Shown here piece after piece: positions 30,532-37,699 of a stretch of 39,207 bases of DNA. A program made the translations under genes and the position numbers. Origin of the DNA: Promethearchaeota archaeon (GTDB lineage: Archaea > Asgardarchaeota > Lokiarchaeia > Sigyniarchaeales > SOKP01); assembly GCA_030599585.1 (NCBI GenBank), contig JAUVNS010000028.1, forward strand, positions 1-39,207, read 5' to 3'. A model generated the notes under the pieces. The model saw nothing but the letters and a program-made list of their open reading frames with translations, searched no databases and was not told the origin of the DNA. Position 1 is the stretch's first letter. Every line of letters begins with the position of its first letter.

Positions 30532-31335
30532 CTAATTGAAAATCTCCAAAATTTCCCAGATACCATTGATTATAAAATCAGGTTTTTCTGATTTGTTTTT
30601 ATTAATCATTTCTAAAGTTGTCTCTCCAGAAAGCACGCAACACGTTGTAACTCCAGCGTTTATTCCCATTTTTATGTCAGTATACAATCTATCACCAAAC
30701 ATTACTGCATCTTGAGGTTTTACTTCGATTTCGCTGAGTTTAAACAAGAGCATTTCTTTGTTTGGCTTTCCAAAAACAAGTGGCATTCGTTCCGTCGTTT
30801 TATATAAGAGGGCGGCGATACCTCCAGCATCAGGTATAAATCCATCCTCTGTAGGACATTTATCGTCTAAATGAGTGGCAATATACGGAAGCCCTTTTTG
30901 GAGCAAATATGATGCTTTTGCTAACCGATTATAGGTCAATTCTTGATCAAAAGCGAGAACTATAATTTCGGGATTACTTTCGCTTAAAGCGAACCCTTCC
31001 TCAATAAACTCTTCTTTAAGAGACTTATTTCCAAGTAAAAAAACAGTAGTGTAGTTATTTTTCTTTAGATAACTAATAGTAGGATGTTGAGAAAGTATTA
31101 AATTTTCACGGGTTGCATTCAAGGATAACTTATTTAATTTTTTAAGGTAATCAGAGGTTGATTTACTTGAATTGTTTGAAAGAAAAAAATAATGCTTTCC
31201 TTGTTCTTTAAGAGCTTTAATTGTTTCGATTACTCCTTCAAAAAGTTCATTTCCTAAATAAAGAGTCCCATCCAAATCAAAGAAGAATACTTTTTTTCTT
31301 CTTAATTCAGCGATATTTTTACTTATGGAGCTCAT
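30532..31335 (-). CDS. HAD-superfamily subfamily IIA hydrolase (NagD-like)
   Basis: FDLDGTLY, SNNSS, GKP, GDRLYTDI, VLSGET. Confidence 0.93.
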   Translation of the reverse strand: MSSISKNIAELRRKKVFFFDLDGTLYLGNELFEGVIETIKALKEQGKHYFFLSNNSSKSTSDYLKKLNKLSLNATRENLILSQHPTISYLKKNNYTTVFLLGNKSLKEEFIEEGFALSESNPEIIVLAFDQELTYNRLAKASYLLQKGLPYIATHLDDKCPTEDGFIPDAGGIAALLYKTTERMPLVFGKPNKEMLLFKLSEIEVKPQDAVMFGDRLYTDIKMGINAGVTTCCVLSGETTLEMINKNKSEKPDFIINGIWEILEIFN

Positions 31336-31418: not shown

Positions 31419-32105
31419 CTAAATCCGATAAGGAACTGTGCTTATTTTCTCTTCGCTTAATTTTAGCCAAGCTTTGTATTTAAAAGTATATTTACCCTTA
31501 ACTAATGGGTTATAGCCAGTTTCTTCTTCAAATAGAATTCGTTTTATCTCGGAATCTATTTGTTTACACCTCTTAATAGTGTGTCTCCTAGCACCTATTA
31601 TGCCAAGGATTATTATAGAAACAACTACAATCAAAATTATTAGAATTGTCTGCGTTAAGTTTGCGTACATGTTAATAAAAACAAACATTATAATGATTGG
31701 AATAACACTAAAATAACAATAGAGAAAGTAGTAGCTACGATCACCAATAAAAAATTGTGTTTTTACTATGTCCTGATTATTTTCGGTTATAGTAAGTATT
31801 AACCATTTACGATAACCGGTTGTAAACTTACTATTTCTAGATGCTTCTAAACCAAGTTCTTCGTAATACTTCTTTTGCTTTAACATTGTATCTGAAATGA
31901 TACAAATCTTTTTTTCTTTAAATTCTAAATAGAGAAATAAGGAGAAAACAAAGCTAATAAAAAAAATTAGATATATAACTGGAGGAATAACAAAACGATC
32001 CTCAAACATCACCATTACGAACCAAAAGATGAGTGTAATACAGATATAAGAGAAAAAATTTTTTAGTTTTGATTTAAAGTATAATCTTAAAAATAATCTA
32101 AGCAT
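31419..32105 (-). CDS. Hypothetical membrane protein (two TM hairpins)
   Basis: 228-aa ORF filling the intergenic gap, four hydrophobic segments, no recognisable family. Confidence 0.65.
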   Translation of the reverse strand: MLRLFLRLYFKSKLKNFFSYICITLIFWFVMVMFEDRFVIPPVIYLIFFISFVFSLFLYLEFKEKKICIISDTMLKQKKYYEELGLEASRNSKFTTGYRKWLILTITENNQDIVKTQFFIGDRSYYFLYCYFSVIPIIIMFVFINMYANLTQTILIILIVVVSIIILGIIGARRHTIKRCKQIDSEIKRILFEEETGYNPLVKGKYTFKYKAWLKLSEEKISTVPYRI

Positions 32106-32224: not shown

Positions 32225-33703
32225 TTATGATTTTGCTCCTTCTATTTCTGTTCCGCACCATTTACAAAATTTATCGTCTTGTGTTAATTTACTTCGGCAA
32301 AATGAACAGGTTTTCGATTTTTTCGGAGTTATTATTGTTGATTCCTTAGTGCTCCTACCGTCAACTTTACCTCCACAGCTGGGGCAAAAGTGAGCGTCGG
32401 GTCTGAGTGAATTTCCGCAACGAATGCAGTTAGTATCTAATTTACTAGGTTTTTTTATAGCTGATTTACTAGGTTTTTTTATTGCTGATTTTGCGGGGGC
32501 TGCTTTTGACGATTTTTTTGGTTTTAATTTCTTCTGTCCTCTTCTGGCAAGTAGAGCAGCAACAATTACGATTCCAATAACCACTATAATAGTAATTAAT
32601 ATTGGACTAAGATCCATCCACCTATCAGTAGAACTAATTCCTGTATCGTAAGTCACATCAAAAGTAATAGTCGTGGTTTCTTCTGGAGATAGCATTGGAT
32701 CAAAAAAAACGAAGAAATACCACAGTCCATCATTCGGAACAGCAAAGTCATTTTCAAGGATTGAATCAACGCCTTCAATATAGAAATCAGTGACTGATAA
32801 GTCAATCACATCTTCAGCAGAGTAATCAAGTGTGAAATTGACCACGGCTGTAGACACTCCTTCGTTAAACCAAACAATGTAATAATCCTTCGCTGATAAC
32901 ACATTATATAATCCAGTATCTGATAATACATCATTTTTATCAACATCAAAAGAGGGACTAAAACCTTGATTCCAATCGTAAAATTCTTGACCGTCCGCTA
33001 TAAAAAAGTCAATTTGGCTTGATGCGTTAAAATCGTAGTTAATTGTTGATCCTGGTTTTAAATAATATTGTACATATTCATATTGGTTGTTTATAAGACT
33101 AAGCTGATCAGAATCACTTCCAACTTTCGAAGTAGTAGGTAAAGATTCAAAAGGGCGATCCCATATAGCAAAGCTTATTAAGCTCGGTGATGATTGTATG
33201 GAATATGTTATATCATTTCCAGCATTCATATCTTCATATTCGTACCAATATTCGTTAAAGTATAGGGTTTCCGTTGAGCGATAATTCACAGTACCATTTG
33301 CATCAGCATTGCTAAAAGGAAACCACATCGCTACTCCAAAAAGAGGCAATAGTATTAATCCTAGAACAATTGCTATCGTTACACCACCTCCAACATAGAC
33401 AGGTGAATAGTACCAAGGTCTATACCATCGTCCAGCCCAATATGGGTGATACCACCAGCGCATATACCATGGTCGATACCCATACCAGTAGTGTCTCCTG
33501 CGGGGTCTATAGTAAGAGTGACGGTACGGTCCGCTAGGTGATCTTGAGGTTACTCGTCTTGCCCCAGTTCTTCCAAAAGGTGTTCCTGAAGATCTTGAAC
33601 CTCCCATTCGAAATGCTGCTGAGCCTCCACGAAATCCTCCTCCTCGAAATCCACCACCACTAAAACCTCCGCCTCTAAAACCACCGCCACCACCACGAGG
33701 CAC
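32225..33703 (-). CDS. Two-TM membrane protein: N-terminal FRGG repeats and Arg/aromatic region, beta-sandwich ectodomain, C-terminal double zinc ribbon (GTG start)
   Basis: GTG at 33703 with GAGGTG (33720-33715) upstream; GGFRGG repeats; two TM helices; CIRC..CPSC and CSFC..CKWC zinc ribbons. Confidence 0.88.
   Translation of the reverse strand: MPRGGGGGFRGGGFSGGGFRGGGFRGGSAAFRMGGSRSSGTPFGRTGARRVTSRSPSGPYRHSYYRPRRRHYWYGYRPWYMRWWYHPYWAGRWYRPWYYSPVYVGGGVTIAIVLGLILLPLFGVAMWFPFSNADANGTVNYRSTETLYFNEYWYEYEDMNAGNDITYSIQSSPSLISFAIWDRPFESLPTTSKVGSDSDQLSLINNQYEYVQYYLKPGSTINYDFNASSQIDFFIADGQEFYDWNQGFSPSFDVDKNDVLSDTGLYNVLSAKDYYIVWFNEGVSTAVVNFTLDYSAEDVIDLSVTDFYIEGVDSILENDFAVPNDGLWYFFVFFDPMLSPEETTTITFDVTYDTGISSTDRWMDLSPILITIIVVIGIVIVAALLARRGQKKLKPKKSSKAAPAKSAIKKPSKSAIKKPSKLDTNCIRCGNSLRPDAHFCPSCGGKVDGRSTKESTIITPKKSKTCSFCRSKLTQDDKFCKWCGTEIEGAKS
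32440..32491. repeat. 24-bp tandem duplication encoding KSAIKKPS x2
   Basis: atttactaggtttttttatagctg followed by atttactaggtttttttattgctg (1 mismatch). Confidence 0.92.
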
Positions 33704-33705
33704 TT

Positions 33706-34713
33706 TTATCTTGGCACCTCATTTGTAGGTTCTTTTTGACGAAAGAAATAATCCCTATAAATTGCTGCTAGCACTAAAATCATCGATATTATTGAAAATG
33801 TCAATCCCACACCGTCAACGGTTATATTCGGAGTTGGAACGGCGATCGCAAATGCGACACCAAATAGAATCCAGTTAATAATTAAAAACACAACAAATAA
33901 AATAGGTAATAAAAATTGTACCAAAAATCCAGTTTCAATGTTGCGAACTTTAGAATAACTCGAGAATATTATTGAAAAAAGTGCAAGGATACCAAAAATA
34001 ACTACCAGAACACTAATAATAACAATTATTAACCAAATTATTCCGTTTGTATTAATTAGATTCACGAATGGAAATAGGAAATTAATGCCCCTTGCTTCAA
34101 ACAATCCAAAAAGGACAACTTCACCTTCAATTCCGGCCATCCCGAAAAAACTAAGCAAACCAGCGGGATTTCCTGAAAAGAAACCAAATATTCCAACAAG
34201 CGGGAAAATTACACCTAGAACAAATGCAATAATTGTACAACAAGTTGCGAACCAAAATTCCGCGGATCTGGTATTAGACACAGAAATTAAGCCTACATCG
34301 TCGAAATCTTCGTCAGGAATAAAACTCCAGCAATCTTGTATAGTGCAAACTCCAACCAACTTCCCATTTTCTACTACTGGTACGACATTGACGTTTAAAT
34401 CTCGCATTCTCGCAAAAGCTTCAGTCACAGGATCATCGAGAGAGACAGATTTAATCTTATACATTGTTGAAATTACTTTTTCAACTTTTGGATCGCTTCC
34501 TTTCGCTACAACGTTTTGAACTATATCAAAATCTGCTATAACTCCGAGAACTTTCTCAGATTTTTCAACTACAACTAAATCTGGCACTCCTAACTCTTTC
34601 ATTTTTTTTGCTGCATCTTGAATAGTCGCATTAGAATCGATTACACCGTATTCATCGTCAATAACCAAATCCTTAATAAAATATTCTTTTTTAGATAAGG
34701 CCATATTCATCAT
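33706..34713 (-). CDS. CBS-pair (Bateman) domain fused to a four-TM domain
   Basis: ATIQDAAKKM..LVVV..VLGVI..FDI and V.EAF..M..VPVVENGKLVGV.T..D, followed by four hydrophobic helices. Confidence 0.88.
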   Translation of the reverse strand: MMNMALSKKEYFIKDLVIDDEYGVIDSNATIQDAAKKMKELGVPDLVVVEKSEKVLGVIADFDIVQNVVAKGSDPKVEKVISTMYKIKSVSLDDPVTEAFARMRDLNVNVVPVVENGKLVGVCTIQDCWSFIPDEDFDDVGLISVSNTRSAEFWFATCCTIIAFVLGVIFPLVGIFGFFSGNPAGLLSFFGMAGIEGEVVLFGLFEARGINFLFPFVNLINTNGIIWLIIVIISVLVVIFGILALFSIIFSSYSKVRNIETGFLVQFLLPILFVVFLIINWILFGVAFAIAVPTPNITVDGVGLTFSIISMILVLAAIYRDYFFRQKEPTNEVPR

Positions 34714-34873: not shown

Positions 34874-35332
34874 TTAAAAAAATTCAGTCCCTTCTATTTT
34901 AGTGGTTGAAACGACTAGTTCCTGCGCAGCCTTCGTTGCTCGCATGACCTTTGCCATGTTACCCACGAGTTTAAATTTACCGGCCATTAATCCTTGGATA
35001 GGATCGAGTTCTTGTTTCAAAACCTTTACCCAATTATCGTATGTTCCTGAAAATACAAATTCTGCGCCGATTTTTTCTCCTTCTTTTAAAGGTCGTGGCT
35101 CAGAATTAGGGGGTAAAATTTCGTATTCTTCACTTTCCTTTAGGACTTTACTGCCTGTGCAGTCTCCTTTAAATAATCCAATAAACATTGTAATTTTATG
35201 ATCCAGATTGCCACTCGGTTCAATCTCGAATATGAAATCACCTGTCCACCAAGAAGCTGCCGCTTTATAATTGGCATTTTCGTTTAAAGCTTTAGTATAG
35301 GCTTCTGCCCATTCATTTGAAAATACTTTCAT
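34874..35332 (-). CDS. SCP2 sterol/lipid-binding domain protein
   Basis: FS.EW...LN.N..Y..AA..W, F..SG.Y.NW, LDPIQGLMAGKFKLVGNM. Confidence 0.88.
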   Translation of the reverse strand: MKVFSNEWAEAYTKALNENANYKAAASWWTGDFIFEIEPSGNLDHKITMFIGLFKGDCTGSKVLKESEEYEILPPNSEPRPLKEGEKIGAEFVFSGTYDNWVKVLKQELDPIQGLMAGKFKLVGNMAKVMRATKAAQELVVSTTKIEGTEFF

Positions 35333-35485
35333 ATCTCACACTCTCTATTTTATAATAAAATTAACATTTAATATGATTAGTATTACTTCTTTTTATTTGA
35401 AAGTAATTAAATCTAAAATGGAATGGTCTGATAAAAAATAGTTATGGATGGATGTTAATTAAGCCAAATTATAAAAAAAAGGGAG

Positions 35486-36640
35486 TTACACTCCTACGCC
35501 AATGGTATTTCCTATACCAGCAACTATAATCTTTGCTCCTTTCTTAGTACGCTTCCGAATCCCCATTTTAATATTTTCTACAATAGGATGTACGCTTTTG
35601 GTAATTGGTCGCGACATTGTGGTTATTGCATTTTCTAAAGATTGTCTACAGATAACAGCGTCAATTGGAATAGCTTTTTTGCTTGAAGATTCCTCGATAT
35701 AAAACTTTTCAACTCCAATTCCTCCAATAGCAGCACCTACTCCGATTGCAATTGACCCCGTTTTATCGCCAGAAAATTTAAGACCAGCATCGATCATTAT
35801 TATCCGAGATATGGAATCTCCATGTTCTTCAATTAGTTTTTTAATTGCGGTGCCTGGTTTTCCTACAGTTCCTCCAGGGCCCTTAGCTCGCACGACATAT
35901 ATTGTTCTATCTTCAAAGGTAACCTTTTGGTAGATAGTATCTTTTGCGATTTCAATAGCTTCAATGTCTTCGCTATTTGAGACGTCTCTTACAAAACTTC
36001 CGGCAACTAAAGGTCCAAGAGCGTCTCCAATTGGACTACCTTCAGAAAATGATTTTGTAGCGTGGAAGTACGATTTACCCATTGCTAAAATCATAGTCAT
36101 CTGCATGGAAATCTGCATTAGGATAATGTAGGATTTAGATTTCTTTCCTAGTATTAAGAAATGTTTGACTAAACGATAAACGTAATCAACGGCCATAGCA
36201 GCTTCAAGAACATTTTCTAAATTCTGAGCTTCTTTAGTTCCGGGCTCAACATTTGGGGCTAAACCTGCTATTTCATCTTTGAATCTTTCATCCCTTACAT
36301 CCATTATGTGGTCAAGTTTTGGGACTATACCATAAGGATCAAGGTCAACTGGTCTAATGGCTATGAAAGTCAAGAAATTTTCAATTTTAAGCATCAAATC
36401 TTTATCTGTTTCATTTTTGTCAGCGTATTTTCTAAAATTCGAAAGCAAAATCTGTTTGCACTCGTCATCCCATTTTTTGAGTTTTTCCAAACCAGATTCG
36501 ATCTCTCTTGCCGAGCGCCACGCCTGGAGTTTGGTACCATAAAACATTGAAACAAATATTAGACCAAACCATAACAAATTAAAAATTAATCCGAGAGGGT
36601 CTGTTTCCGTTTGGCCAAGCTGCATTATTTGTACAATCAT
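35486..36640 (-). CDS. DUF1512 family archaeal membrane-anchored protein
   Basis: N-terminal TM, P.DLDPYGIV.KL.H, PIGDALGPLVA, AKGPGGTVG.PG, IDAGLK..G..TG, G.G.AIGGIG.EK, GIGNTIGV. Confidence 0.85.
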   Translation of the reverse strand: MIVQIMQLGQTETDPLGLIFNLLWFGLIFVSMFYGTKLQAWRSAREIESGLEKLKKWDDECKQILLSNFRKYADKNETDKDLMLKIENFLTFIAIRPVDLDPYGIVPKLDHIMDVRDERFKDEIAGLAPNVEPGTKEAQNLENVLEAAMAVDYVYRLVKHFLILGKKSKSYIILMQISMQMTMILAMGKSYFHATKSFSEGSPIGDALGPLVAGSFVRDVSNSEDIEAIEIAKDTIYQKVTFEDRTIYVVRAKGPGGTVGKPGTAIKKLIEEHGDSISRIIMIDAGLKFSGDKTGSIAIGVGAAIGGIGVEKFYIEESSSKKAIPIDAVICRQSLENAITTMSRPITKSVHPIVENIKMGIRKRTKKGAKIIVAGIGNTIGVGV

Positions 36641-36789: not shown

Positions 36790-37227
36790 ATGATAGACGA
36801 AGAAGACGATGAAGATATTTTAAATAAAAAGCGTTCTTTGAAGAGCATTCTTAAAAACCTTTTGTTGGTTTTACTTATTGGTATAGGAGTTCTTTTTATG
36901 TATATCGGAGGCGTTGATCAAGTTTTCAATATGGTTATAGGTTTCACTTTCATATGTTTAGGGACCACATTATTCCAAATGGGAAAAAATCCCAGTGACC
37001 CAATAAGACAGACTTTAACCATATTAAAATGTAAATCTTGCAGTGCGATTAAAGTAAGGAATTATGAGATTGGGGATTTCATTTTCAAGTCTATGGGATC
37101 ATGCGATAAATGTAATAATTCTATGGAAATAGATCAGATTTATAGCGTCAAACTTAAGAAATCCCGGAAAAAAGACGATAAGCTGGAAAAAAGCAAAAAG
37201 AAGTTACTGGAAACAATAGAAGTTTAA
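36790..37227 (+). CDS. Archaeal-type two-TM protein with C-terminal Zn-ribbon (CxxC...CxxC)
   Basis: Two TM helices, then TILKCKSC...R.Y..GDFIFK..G.CDKC...M.I..IY. Confidence 0.8.
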   Translation: MIDEEDDEDILNKKRSLKSILKNLLLVLLIGIGVLFMYIGGVDQVFNMVIGFTFICLGTTLFQMGKNPSDPIRQTLTILKCKSCSAIKVRNYEIGDFIFKSMGSCDKCNNSMEIDQIYSVKLKKSRKKDDKLEKSKKKLLETIEV

Positions 37228-37252
37228 ATTTCATAAGTTAGGTGTTTCCCTA

Positions 37253-37699
37253 ATTTTAAATAAAATTGGAATGGGCGGAACTTTTGATCATCTCCATGAC
37301 GGTCATAAATTTTTATTAAAAATAGCTTTGAAATTGTCCAATTCAATAGAGATTGGCTTAACATCTCAAGAATTGCTTAAAAATAAAAAGGCTCCTTCGA
37401 AGTTAGAAGATTACGATACAAGAAAGAATAAATTAAAAACATTCATTAGCACTTTCACGAACATTAATAGGGTGAACATTGTTGAAATTAGAAATTGGGA
37501 TGATATGGCTAAATATTCTCAAGATCCAGAGTACGAAGGGCTAATTGTAAGTCAAGAAACCTATTCAAATGCCGTGAAATTAAGCGAACAAAGAGAAGCA
37601 AAGGGATTGGGACCACTAATTTTAATTGTTATTCCCCTTCTAAAAGGAAAAAATAATAAAAGAATAAGTTCTACGGCTATTCGAGAAGAATTAGAGTAG
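37253..37699 (+). CDS. coaD: Phosphopantetheine adenylyltransferase (archaeal/eukaryote-type CoaD); first ATG at 37271, probable true start at ATT 37253
   Basis: GGTFDHLHDGH, IGLTS, IVSQET, R...GL.PL, ISSTAIR; the in-frame upstream codons ILNKIG complete the first beta-strand. Confidence 0.88.
   Translation: MLNKIGMGGTFDHLHDGHKFLLKIALKLSNSIEIGLTSQELLKNKKAPSKLEDYDTRKNKLKTFISTFTNINRVNIVEIRNWDDMAKYSQDPEYEGLIVSQETYSNAVKLSEQREAKGLGPLILIVIPLLKGKNNKRISSTAIREELE

What the first reader, a model, noticed from the sequence alone, without database searches (positions are those of the whole stretch)
33400..33703. Fibrillarin/GAR1-like FRGG repeats plus an Arg/Tyr/Trp-rich segment on an archaeal membrane protein
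Seen: MPRGGGGGFRGGGFSGGGFRGGGFRGG (4 RGG, three of them FRGG), then RRRHYWYGYRPWYMRWWYHPYWAGRWYRPWYYSP, with no acidic residue in roughly the first 130 aa. Known: FRGG/GAR domains of eukaryotic nucleolin, fibrillarin and GAR1 bind RNA, are Arg-methylated and drive phase separation through Arg-aromatic contacts. Inference: this could be a membrane-tethered RNA-binding or condensate-nucleating tail. Caveat: Gly-rich GGGFSGGG tails also occur on unrelated bacterial membrane proteins.
Basis: partly seen in the sequence, partly recalled or inferred. Interest (0 to 1): 0.7.

Follow-up and report, generated by a model that had tools for sequence, protein, structure and literature searches.

The report
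Conserved RGG/aromatic tail, Asgard membrane protein
A two-pass membrane protein of Loki-type Asgard archaea begins with a disordered, strongly basic glycine-arginine and tyrosine/tryptophan-rich tail that faces the cytoplasm and is the best-conserved part of the protein, but what the tail binds has not been tested.

Summary
Window 32225..33703 (-) encodes a 492-aa protein. It starts with four RGG (three FRGG), continues with an Arg/Tyr/Trp/Pro block, and has no acidic residue before D134.

- Chance is excluded: this is the only one of 7013 long frames in the 4.85-Mb, 32.6% GC genome with clustered RGG.
- The start is supported. A start codon sits directly before PRGG in 75 of 80 related loci, with a conserved GAGGTG-type ribosome-binding site 10-12 nt upstream.
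- The RGG tract shows 164 synonymous against 20 non-synonymous codon differences, the strongest constraint in the protein.
- Topology is N-in/C-in: two TM helices, an acidic GOLD-fold ectodomain, then a Lys-rich linker and two Cys4 zinc ribbons.
- The gene follows a CBS-pair tetraspan gene at a 1-9 nt gap; that gene is present in 78 of 80 loci.

The tail is real, cytoplasmic and Arg-conserved in close relatives (105 of 105). It is not related to fibrillarin or GAR1. It is conserved position by position, unlike typical condensate domains. Deeper relatives lack RGG, and no RNA-linked neighbour is conserved. RNA binding remains the leading but untested idea.

Earlier runs of this scan reported the same family on other genomes. 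I found no paper describing it.

The parts
32225..33703 (-). Whole gene: 492-aa two-pass membrane protein (GTG start at 33703-33701, stop at 32225-32227).
   Evidence: ORF list and translation. 301 homologues at E<=1e-3.
33715..33720 (-). GAGGTG Shine-Dalgarno-like hexamer, 11 nt before the GTG start. It lies inside the last codons (E-V) of the upstream CBS gene.
   Evidence: Read. An AGGTG-type site is present in 73 of 74 loci, and the spacing is 10-12 nt in 68 of those 73.
33608..33703 (-). Residues 1-32: MPRGGG followed by (F-R/S-G-G-G) pentapeptide repeats. Four RGG, arranged as two Di-RGG units.
   Evidence: 164 synonymous against 20 non-synonymous codon differences. Majority-residue fraction 0.85. 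pLDDT about 30.
33506..33607 (-). Residues 33-66: basic Ser/Thr/Pro/Gly spacer carrying the invariant motifs PFGRTG and GPYRH.
   Evidence: Invariant columns P42 F43 G44 R45 T46 G47 R50 G58 P59 Y60 H62. PFGRTG and GPY.H occur in 105 of 105.
33383..33505 (-). Residues 67-107: Arg/Tyr/Trp/Pro juxtamembrane block ending in RPWYYSPVYVGGG. It probably lies in the inner-leaflet interface.
   Evidence: Lowest Wimley-White interfacial energy of the whole protein: -12.25 kcal/mol for the 19-aa window starting at residue 71 (scale recalled). A remnant motif is kept in RGG-less relatives.
33326..33382 (-). TM1, residues 108-126.
   Evidence: Hydropathy. AF2 helix 101-127.
32603..33325 (-). Residues 127-367: acidic extracellular beta-sandwich domain (net charge -33, no Cys, 3 N-x-S/T sequons).
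   Evidence: pLDDT about 90.
32804..33127 (-). Residues 193-300: GOLD-fold core of the ectodomain. It overlaps a sub-threshold Pfam APD1-4_N match (residues 196-239).
   Evidence: VIA-align: 5azw_B Z 12.1, rmsd 1.4 over 87 aa; 5gu5_A Z 11.5; 7rrm_C Z 11.1. Foldseek: 7rrm_A E 1e-5. PF16040: 25.6 bits against a cut-off of 27.
32546..32602 (-). TM2, residues 368-386.
32435..32545 (-). Residues 387-423: fast-evolving Lys-rich cytoplasmic linker.
   Evidence: Majority fraction 0.43. Non-synonymous/synonymous ratio 1.79.
32228..32434 (-). Residues 424-492: two Cys4 zinc ribbons (double zinc ribbon).
   Evidence: Pfam DZR 37.7 bits against a cut-off of 27.3. All 8 Cys are invariant.
33706..34713 (-). 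Upstream partner gene: CBS pair plus four TM helices. Its stop codon lies 2 nt before the start of the RGG gene.
   Evidence: Pfam CBS 3.2e-16. AF2 model with helices 148-173, 226-253, 260-290 and 301-318. CBS fold Z 17.3. Present directly upstream in 78 of 80 loci.

Best explanation
**What the gene encodes.** It encodes the receptor-shaped subunit of a conserved two-gene membrane module of Loki-type Asgard archaea. The other subunit is the CBS-pair tetraspan protein encoded 2 nt upstream.

**Topology.** The protein crosses the membrane twice with both ends inside. An acidic GOLD-fold domain is outside. Inside are the 107-residue N-tail and, at the other end, a Lys-rich linker with two zinc ribbons.

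**The tail has three parts.**
1. FRGGG-type repeats at the very N-terminus.
2. A basic spacer with invariant short motifs (PFGRTG, GPYRH).
3. An Arg/Tyr/Trp/Pro block next to TM1.

**Proposed mechanism.** The aromatic-basic block lies flat in the inner-leaflet interface and holds the base of the tail on the membrane. The flexible RGG repeats project as a multivalent cationic arm. Together with the Lys-rich linker and zinc ribbons, that arm binds a polyanionic partner at the membrane. RNA or another nucleic acid is most likely, by analogy with RGG boxes.

**Shown here:** sequence, start, conservation, selection, predicted disorder, topology logic, gene pairing.

**Inferred:** interfacial placement of the aromatic block, the nature of the ligand, and any link to the CBS partner.

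The resemblance to eukaryotic GAR/RGG domains is one of kind (probably convergent), not of shown descent.
For: **The tail is real**
- It is unique in its genome.
- The start is conserved in 75 of 80 loci, with an AGGTG-type ribosome-binding site in 73 of 74 loci, at 10-12 nt in 68 of those 73.

**The tail is functionally constrained**
- The RGG tract has 164 synonymous against 20 non-synonymous codon differences over 13 pairwise comparisons. Its ratio of 0.12 compares with 0.96 for the ectodomain.
- Majority-residue fraction is 0.85 (RGG), 0.76 (middle) and 0.81 (aromatic block), against 0.67 for the ectodomain.

**RGG-box criteria**
- Di-RGG is present in 101 of 105 close homologues and Tri-RGG in 71 of 105.
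- Only 1 of 105 tails has any D/E and only 1 has any K.

**Disorder and topology**
- pLDDT is below 50 for residues 1-79, 81-83 and 85-103.
- There are two TM helices only.
- Median net charge is +19 for the tail, -28.5 for the ectodomain and +14 for the C-terminal part. All 8 Cys lie in the C-terminal part and the sequons lie in the ectodomain.

**Aromatic block at the interface**
- It gives the lowest Wimley-White interfacial energy of the protein.
- Its remnant (PWY..HYKFWG.P.K.W..SP) survives in RGG-less relatives.

**Gene pairing**
- The CBS gene is directly upstream in 78 of 80 loci; the gap, measured in 74 loci, is 1-9 nt.

**Weak sign of expression**
- Contigs from three RNA libraries, 85-99% alike, lie on both genes, including the RGG-coding stretch. 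DNA carry-over is not excluded.
Against: - No nucleic-acid-binding assay exists, and no RRM, KH or other RNA domain is present.
- Conserved neighbours are a CBS tetraspan and often a HAD-IIA hydrolase. Further neighbours vary (purine synthesis, transporters). None is RNA-linked.
- The invariant short motifs and very low amino-acid change fit a specific protein partner as well as, or better than, a loose polyanion binder.
- Deeper family members lack RGG. One Lokiarchaeia member has Gly/His/Tyr repeats in its place. The core function of the family therefore does not need RGG.
- The tail alone found nothing in the PDB sequence search or in the protein atlas.
- The Wimley-White values were recalled from memory, not taken from a tool.
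Confidence: 0.4

Rival explanations
1. The tail is a docking or regulatory arm for a specific protein. The most obvious candidate is the cytoplasmic CBS pair of the translationally coupled partner. Another cytoplasmic machine (cytoskeleton, ESCRT, ubiquitin system) is also possible. The RGG repeats and the PFGRTG/GPYRH motifs would act as short linear motifs.
For: - Conservation is position-specific: PFGRTG and GPY.H occur in 105 of 105, and the columns are invariant.
- The RGG tract has a non-synonymous/synonymous ratio of 0.12.
- The protein strictly co-occurs with the CBS tetraspan gene, at a 1-9 nt gap.
- In one relative (P0128) the part before the aromatic block is replaced by TPR repeats, a protein-binding module.
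Against: - The number of RGG units varies from 2 to 7. That fits additive, multivalent binding better than a lock-and-key site.
- P0128 is a single metagenomic sequence and may be a mis-join.
- No Tudor or WW domain was found in the genome, but the controls for those searches rang nowhere.
Confidence: 0.25
2. The tail is mainly a lipid-binding, topology-fixing element. Arg and aromatic residues anchor it on anionic archaeal lipids, perhaps clustering lipids or bending the membrane. The RGG part is only an extension of this.
For: - The aromatic block has the lowest interfacial energy in the protein and sits next to TM1.
- The aromatic-basic juxtamembrane motif is the only part of the tail kept in RGG-less relatives.
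- There are no acidic residues.
Against: - It does not explain why the distal RGG tract, 70-100 residues from the membrane, is the most constrained part.
- It does not explain the invariant PFGRTG/GPYRH motifs.
- The 19-aa windows across residues 19-55 have positive (unfavourable) interfacial energies, up to +4.58.
Confidence: 0.17
3. The tail nucleates a membrane-tethered condensate through Arg-aromatic contacts, with or without RNA.
For: - Across the 46 aligned tails, residues recalled as 'stickers' are abundant: R 16.9%, Y 13%, W 7%, F 5.9%. Gly (26.7%) would act as spacer.
- The tail is predicted disordered.
- Anchoring on a membrane would raise the local concentration.
Against: - Net charge is +19 with no acidic residue, so homotypic demixing needs a polyanion.
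- Conservation is positional rather than compositional.
- The family works without RGG in deeper branches.
- There is no experimental hint.
Confidence: 0.12
4. The RGG tract is not part of the protein: translation starts downstream (for example at M33), or the tract is a DNA repeat without coding function.
For: - The start is GTG in this copy.
- Some database gene calls start at the Met that corresponds to M33, or later.
Against: - ATG sits directly before PRGG in 55 of 80 related loci, GTG in 17 and TTG in 3.
- A ribosome-binding site lies at the right distance.
- Synonymous changes outnumber non-synonymous changes 164 to 20 in the tract.
- M33 is not conserved: the aligned column also holds T, S, R and G.
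Confidence: 0.02

Closest known systems
Eukaryotic RGG/RG boxes and GAR domains (fibrillarin, GAR1, nucleolin, FUS-family RGG regions)
   Same: - Clustered RGG, often as FRGG, with Gly spacers and interspersed Phe.
- Predicted disorder, no acidic residues, variable repeat number.
- Di-RGG spacing is met in this copy, and Tri-RGG spacing in 71 of 105 relatives.
   Different: - The tail sits at the N-terminus of an archaeal membrane protein, not on a soluble RNA-binding protein with RRM/KH or a snoRNP core.
- No homology is shown.
- The sequence is conserved position by position, and more strongly than the folded domains.
- It is followed by a dense Arg/Tyr/Trp/Pro block.
- No PRMT5 domain was found in the genome.
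- The genome's own fibrillarin and Gar1 have no such tract.
GOLD domains of p24/TMED cargo receptors (5azw, 5gu5, 7rrm) and of SEC14-like proteins
   Same: Residues about 193-300 of the ectodomain superpose on GOLD domains with Z 10-12 and rmsd 1.4-2.1 over 87-94 residues. The next unrelated fold scores Z 9.7.
   Different: - This copy has no significant sequence match to EMP24_GP25L. One distant relative has E 0.002, below the cut-off.
- It is a two-pass protein with both ends inside, whereas p24 is a type I protein with a coiled coil and a short tail (p24 layout recalled).
- The GOLD core is embedded in further beta-strands (138-190 and 300-353).
Eukaryotic APD1-4 membrane RING E3 ligases (Pfam APD1-4_N, PF16040)
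   Same: - 17 of 46 aligned family members match PF16040 at E<=0.01, best E 8.2e-7.
- The match lies on the first half of the GOLD-fold core.
- General layout is a membrane protein with a non-cytoplasmic beta domain and cytoplasmic zinc fingers.
   Different: - This copy scores 25.6 bits, below the cut-off of 27.
- It has no RING finger, only two zinc ribbons.
- No APD1-4_M match is listed.
- I could not fetch APD sequences for a profile-profile test.
- Whether APD proteins carry RGG tails was not examined.
Gly-rich GGGFSGGG-type tails of bacterial TPM/DUF2207 membrane proteins
   Same: Gly-rich, Phe/Ser-interrupted low-complexity tail on a membrane protein (features of those tails recalled).
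   Different: - Here the tail is N-terminal, Arg is present in every unit of close relatives, and an aromatic-basic block follows it.
- The protein has no TPM or DUF2207 match.
- The downstream 228-aa neighbour has only a weak DUF2207_C hit: 16.8 bits against a cut-off of 33.

Membership tests
RGG/RG box (GAR-type low-complexity region) | At least two RGG separated by 0-4 residues (Di-RGG) or three (Tri-RGG). The definition is recalled from Thandapani et al. 2013 and was not read here. | tested here: met
   - This copy has RGG at residues 3, 10, 20 and 25, giving two Di-RGG units and no Tri-RGG.
- Among 105 full-length close homologues, Di-RGG occurs in 101 and Tri-RGG in 71.
RGG/RG box (GAR-type low-complexity region) | Intrinsically disordered region. 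| tested here: met
   In the AF2 model, pLDDT is below 50 for residues 1-79, 81-83 and 85-103. There is no secondary structure before residue 79.
RGG/RG box (GAR-type low-complexity region) | Arg of the repeats conserved among homologues. | tested here: met
   - All 105 close homologues carry 2-7 RGG, and R3 and R25 are invariant.
- This is not met in deep branches: the RGG-less clade and P0273 with Gly/His/Tyr repeats.
RGG/RG box (GAR-type low-complexity region) | Binds RNA or other nucleic acid. | not testable with these tools
   This needs EMSA, anisotropy or CLIP. Gene context gives no RNA link.
RGG/RG box (GAR-type low-complexity region) | Arg methylated by a PRMT. | tested here: inconclusive
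   - Pfam PRMT5 has 0 matches in the genome, and its control rang in 2 of 14 genomes.
- PRMT_C has 0 matches, but its control rang nowhere.
- Generic class I methyltransferases cannot be excluded.
Fibrillarin / GAR1 / nucleolin protein families | Carries the family's catalytic or core domain (Fibrillarin PF01269, Gar1 PF04410, RRMs). | tested here: not met
   - This protein has no such Pfam match.
- The genome's fibrillarin (open frame of 254 aa; match to domain positions 2-224 of 227) and Gar1-like gene (91-aa frame) are separate genes. They have no RGG cluster.
GOLD domain | GOLD beta-sandwich fold. | tested here: met
   - VIA-align: 5azw_B Z 12.1, rmsd 1.4 over 87 aa; 5gu5_A Z 11.5; 7rrm_C Z 11.1; 1o6u_A Z 10.8; 5azx_A Z 10.2.
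- Foldseek: 7rrm_A E 1e-5, TM-score 0.77 normalised to the target.
p24/TMED family | Sequence match to EMP24_GP25L, plus type I layout with a coiled coil and a short COP-binding tail (layout recalled). | tested here: not met
   - This copy has no PF01105 match at E<=0.01.
- It has two TM helices and long cytoplasmic ends.
APD1-4 family | APD1-4_N (PF16040) match above the Pfam cut-off. | tested here: inconclusive
   - This copy scores 25.6 bits against a cut-off of 27, E 1e-5.
- 17 of 46 family members match at E<=0.01, best E 8.2e-7.
APD1-4 family | C-terminal RING finger (E3 ligase). | tested here: not met
   - This copy has only zinc-ribbon families.
- A longer relative, P0122, has a weak zf-RING_4 hit: E 0.0097, 16.1 bits against a cut-off of 27.
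Double zinc ribbon (DZR, PF12773) | Two CxxC...CxxC ribbons matching the Pfam model above its cut-off. | tested here: met
   - 37.7 bits against a cut-off of 27.3.
- All 46 aligned members match, and all 8 Cys are invariant.
TPM/DUF2207-type Gly-rich tails | Gly/Ser/Phe tail without Arg at the C-terminus of a TPM or DUF2207 protein (recalled). | tested here: not met
   The tail is N-terminal and Arg-bearing, and the protein has no TPM or DUF2207 match.

The most novel reading that the evidence does not exclude
Loki-type Asgard archaea tether a eukaryote-style RGG/aromatic disordered domain to the inner face of the membrane. It sits on a GOLD-fold, APD-like receptor that is paired with a nucleotide-sensing CBS protein. 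The tail captures RNA, or ribosomes or chromatin, at the membrane. It may form a two-dimensional RNA-protein assembly whose state is set by the outside ligand and by the cell's adenine-nucleotide level. That would be a prokaryotic example, and a possible forerunner, of membrane-associated RGG-driven ribonucleoprotein organisation.
Probability: 0.15. Interest if true: 0.85.

Novelty: new variant of a known kind. Interest (0 to 1): 0.62.

Why it matters
By my recollection, RGG/GAR regions are regarded as a eukaryotic feature; archaeal fibrillarin and Gar1 lack them, as they do in this genome. Here an RGG-type tract with an Arg/aromatic block is the most strongly conserved part of a membrane protein, and that protein is confined to a few Asgard lineages.

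The same protein carries a GOLD-fold outer domain with weak sequence links to the eukaryotic APD family. If the tail binds RNA or organises a membrane-bound assembly, it would show that this kind of disordered binding module existed in the archaeal relatives of eukaryotes, and in a membrane context.

If the tail instead docks a protein or lipids, it is still an unusual case: a low-complexity sequence under tighter constraint than the folded domains next to it. Either way the module (CBS tetraspan plus this protein) is a well-defined, testable target in cultured Asgard strains.

Tried and rejected
- **Tail against PDB sequences.** Residues 1-40 gave 0 matches at E<=10, probably because low-complexity filters removed them.
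- **Protein atlas.** The tail (1-107, named clusters) gave no usable hit. The ectodomain gave nothing at 0.9 or above, only a 0.84 lead to a cluster with 19% EMP24_GP25L.
- **Whole-family profile against PDB sequences.** Only insignificant zinc-ribbon hits appeared.
- **Neighbourhoods of the RGG-less clade.**
  - The 14-sequence alignment was too diverse to search with.
  - A 3-sequence alignment found only zinc-ribbon matches in genome contigs and nothing in metagenome contigs.
  - The RGG-less profile over 301 Asgard genomes found only the RGG-bearing orthologues.
  - Cluster look-up gave no organism names for those proteins.
  - Whether the RGG-less relatives are also paired with a CBS gene is therefore open.
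- **Tudor, WW and PRMT_C searches of the genome.** All found nothing, but their controls rang nowhere. These results say little.
- **Fold search of the CBS partner.** CBS pairs filled the list, so its four-helix membrane part is untested.
- **RNA-library contigs.**
  - Stretches without cover, and depth, are not interpreted.
  - The one contig that bridges the gene junction with more than 31 nt on each side comes from run X16, which is probably DNA.
- **Literature searches** found no paper on this family, on RGG tracts in Asgard archaea, or on APD domains in archaea. They cover only the held library.
- **First codon-count script.** It failed on an empty sequence and was corrected.
Full report
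**1. The observation**

- RGG starts at residues 3, 10, 20 and 25, three of them as FRGG.
- The Arg/Tyr/Trp-rich text is residues 68-101.
- The given coordinates cover residues 1-101.
- The 107 residues before the first hydrophobic helix hold 19 Arg, 27 Gly, 26 aromatic residues, no Lys and no acidic residue. The first acidic residue is D134.

This is not chance. In the whole 4.85-Mb genome (32.6% GC) there are 7013 stop-to-stop frames of at least 80 aa.
- Only this frame has three RGG within 40 residues.
- Only this frame has even two RGG within 15 residues, and none has a GGGxGGGxGGG pattern.

At the DNA level the tract is an imperfect 15-nt repeat (3.1 copies, 78% match). Its GC content is 56%.

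**2. Is the tail translated?**

Four lines of comparison say yes.
- *Start codon.* In 80 related loci from public Asgard genomes, a start codon lies directly before PRGG in 75: ATG 55, GTG 17, TTG 3. Of the other five, one is at a contig edge, one is N-masked, and three were missed by my anchor pattern.
- *Ribosome-binding site.* An AGGTG-type site (GAGGTG here, 33715-33720) is present upstream in 73 of 74 loci. The spacing is 10-12 nt in 68 of those 73. The stop codon of the upstream gene lies 1-9 nt before the start, and 2 nt in 39 loci.
- *Selection.* I compared this copy, codon by codon, with 13 loci of at least 65% identity. These comparisons are not independent. Residues 1-32 show 164 synonymous against 20 non-synonymous codon differences, a ratio of 0.12. 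The ratio is 0.48 for residues 33-107, 0.96 for the ectodomain, 0.98 for the zinc ribbons and 1.79 for the Lys-rich linker.
- *No conserved internal start.* The Met at residue 33 is not conserved.

Contigs from three RNA libraries, from relatives 85-99% alike, lie on both genes and on the RGG-coding stretch. This is only a weak sign of expression, because DNA in such libraries is not excluded.

**3. Conservation of the tail**

The homology search gave 301 proteins at E<=1e-3, and the best 120 were listed.
- 105 begin with [M/V/L]PRGG.
- The other 15 are shorter gene calls (359-479 aa) that begin inside or after the tail.

Among the 105:
- The number of RGG runs from 2 to 7 (2, 10, 28, 52, 10 and 3 proteins respectively).
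- Di-RGG spacing occurs in 101 and Tri-RGG spacing in 71.
- One tail has an acidic residue and one has a Lys.
- PFGRTG and GPY.H are present in all 105, and RPW[YF][YF][SA]P in 101.

In a 46-sequence alignment (54-85% identity to the query), the tail is better conserved than the folded parts. The majority-residue fraction is 0.85 (residues 1-32), 0.76 (33-66) and 0.81 (67-107). It is 0.67 for the ectodomain and 0.43 for the Lys-rich linker.

The picture changes in deeper branches (profile search over 1.84 billion representatives).
- Some members still start MPRGGG but have fewer FRGGG units (P0122-P0129).
- One Lokiarchaeia-labelled member has Gly/His/Tyr repeats in place of FRGGG (P0273).
- An unnamed metagenomic clade (P0157, P0160-P0164 and others) has no RGG and has acidic and Lys residues in its N-terminal part. 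It keeps an aromatic-basic motif just before TM1.

So the juxtamembrane block is the old part of the tail. The RGG tract is a later addition, held fixed within one clade.

**4. The rest of the protein and its topology**

Hydropathy gives two TM helices, 108-126 and 368-386. The AlphaFold model agrees (helices 101-127 and 358-391). It gives a confident beta-sandwich (pLDDT about 90) between the helices and no structure for residues 1-103 (pLDDT about 30-45).

Over the 46 aligned sequences:
- The median net charge is +19 for the tail, -28.5 for the middle domain and +14 for the C-terminal part.
- All eight Cys are in the C-terminal part.
- The N-x-S/T sequons are in the middle domain.

The C-terminal part holds two Cys4 zinc ribbons (Pfam DZR, 37.7 bits against a cut-off of 27.3). 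With two membrane passes, the N-tail must be on the same side as the zinc ribbons. By the positive-inside rule, and because zinc ribbons are usually cytoplasmic (established knowledge), that side is the cytoplasm.

The core of the outer domain (about residues 193-300) has the GOLD fold.
- p24beta1 5azw_B: Z 12.1, rmsd 1.4 over 87 residues.
- p24gamma2: Z 11.5. TMED1: Z 11.1. Supernatant protein factor: Z 10.8. p24delta1: Z 10.2.
- The next unrelated fold scores Z 9.7. Foldseek agrees.

The same stretch gives a sub-threshold match to Pfam APD1-4_N (25.6 bits against 27). Of the 46 family members, 17 match at E<=0.01, best E 8.2e-7.

**5. Context**

The gene directly upstream encodes a CBS pair followed by four TM helices.
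- It is present, on the same strand and directly upstream, in 78 of 80 loci. In the two exceptions the RGG gene lies at the contig edge.
- A HAD-IIA-type hydrolase gene is nearby in 57 of 80 loci, on either side.
- All other neighbours vary, and none is RNA-linked.

Distribution: among 301 sampled genomes of the phylum, the ectodomain profile matches in 75. These are 49 of 68 in the window's own family (plus the window's genome), 6 of 7 in a second family of the same order, 18 of 21 in one family of another class, and 1 of 28 in a fourth family. It matches in none of the 26 remaining families (one search agrees). Each genome has one copy. Apart from contig-edge fragments of this same gene, no further match covered the tail region at E<=1e-10.

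**6. How it most likely works**

*Shown:* a cytoplasmic, disordered, strongly cationic, three-part tail under strong purifying selection, on a receptor-shaped two-pass protein that is translationally coupled to a CBS tetraspan.

*Inferred:*
- The Arg/Tyr/Trp/Pro block lies in the inner-leaflet interface. It has the lowest Wimley-White interfacial energy of the protein, -12.25 kcal/mol for the 19-residue window starting at residue 71. The scale was recalled from memory.
- The RGG repeats form a flexible multivalent arm for a polyanion, most likely RNA. Both cytoplasmic arms are polycationic, and the other one ends in zinc ribbons.

I give this reading about 0.4. The rivals are:
- a specific protein-docking arm, perhaps for the CBS pair (0.25);
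- a lipid-binding and topology element only (0.17);
- a condensate scaffold (0.12);
- an untranslated tract (0.02).

Against the RNA and condensate readings:
- Conservation is positional.
- No RNA-linked context exists.
- RGG is absent in deeper relatives.
- No PRMT5 domain was found.

Against the lipid-only reading, the distal RGG tract is the most constrained part.

**7. Comparison with what is known**

The tail meets the formal spacing rule for Di-RGG (definition recalled). It looks like a GAR/RGG region, but the protein is not a member of the fibrillarin, GAR1 or nucleolin families.
- The genome's own fibrillarin sits in an open frame of 254 aa that matches domain positions 2-224 of 227.
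- Its Gar1-like gene sits in a 91-aa frame.
- Neither carries an RGG cluster.

Arg is fixed in the close relatives, the tail is N-terminal, and no TPM or DUF2207 domain is present.

Papers:
- For PMC10936438 I read only passages found by term search. It reports GOLD domains in methanogen adaptin-like systems, not in this family.
- For PMC7194090 I saw only the start of the abstract in a search listing. It states that the GAR domain is an addition in eukaryotic fibrillarin.
- Searches for Asgard with RGG, for Asgard with 'intrinsically disordered' and 'arginine', for GOLD domain with Asgard, and for PF16040/DUF4792/APD1-4 found no description of this family in the held library.

**8. Earlier notes of this scan**

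After I had my own results, look-ups showed that the same family had been reported from at least eight other genomes. Those notes give the same main points: a conserved RGG tail, a GOLD-fold APD-like ectodomain and pairing with a CBS gene. They add a RING-like finger in one genus. I checked the RING point only lightly. A 559-aa relative (P0122) has an extra Cys-rich C-terminus with a weak zf-RING_4 hit (E 0.0097, below the cut-off).

**9. Verdict**

The feature is a new variant of a known kind of motif in an unexpected setting. Interest 0.62.

Noticed in passing
window 33706-34713 (-) and 33701-33720: The last codons of the CBS tetraspan gene (Glu-Val = GAG GTG) double as the ribosome-binding site of the RGG gene. 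Many relatives end ...EV(P/S)(R/K), so the C-terminus of the CBS protein appears constrained by this overlap.
   Followed up: partly
window 30532-31335 (-); related loci L023-L085: A HAD-IIA-type hydrolase gene (Hydrolase_6 + Hydrolase_like) lies near the CBS/RGG pair in 57 of 80 loci. It is downstream in close relatives and directly upstream of the CBS gene in more distant ones (about 26% identity to the window's copy).
   Followed up: partly
window 31419-32105 (-): A 228-aa multi-TM protein lies directly downstream, with only a weak DUF2207_C hit (16.8 bits against a cut-off of 33). It is present in 20 of 80 related loci, so it is not part of the conserved pair.
   Followed up: partly
protein P0128 (875 aa, metagenomic): In this relative the part before the aromatic juxtamembrane block is replaced by a long TPR-repeat region with an N-terminal Cys motif. 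It may be a true domain swap or an assembly or gene-call artefact.
   Followed up: partly
protein P0139 (652 aa, metagenomic): Here the same GOLD-type ectodomain is followed by WD40/PQQ-like beta-propeller repeats and a C-terminal TM helix. It has no RGG tail and no zinc ribbons.
   Followed up: no
protein P0122 (559 aa) and loci L110-L116, L120, L123: In one family of another class the orthologues are about 556-594 aa in open frame. P0122 carries an extra Cys-rich C-terminal finger with a weak zf-RING_4 hit (E 0.0097). Earlier notes of the scan call it RING-like.
   Followed up: partly
window 34874-36640 (-) and 36790-37699 (+): The gene order CTP-transferase-like, orf145, DUF1512, SCP2, CBS tetraspan, RGG protein, (228-aa TM protein), HAD, pyruvate phosphate dikinase is conserved in about 24 of 80 loci (close relatives only).
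   Followed up: partly
genome contig C24, minus strand, frame 2, 117-aa frame at about residue offset 108791: This is the only other frame with a dense Arg/Trp/Tyr window. It reads as a repetitive hydrophobic FIYW.WFRLW pattern and may be a DNA repeat read in frame rather than a gene.
   Followed up: no
rank 37 (9zni_6): Among the CBS-pair structures that resemble the partner protein is a CBS-domain factor bound to an archaeal 70S ribosome (Z 12.9). It is one of many CBS hits and is not specific, but it shows that CBS proteins can act on ribosomes.
   Followed up: no
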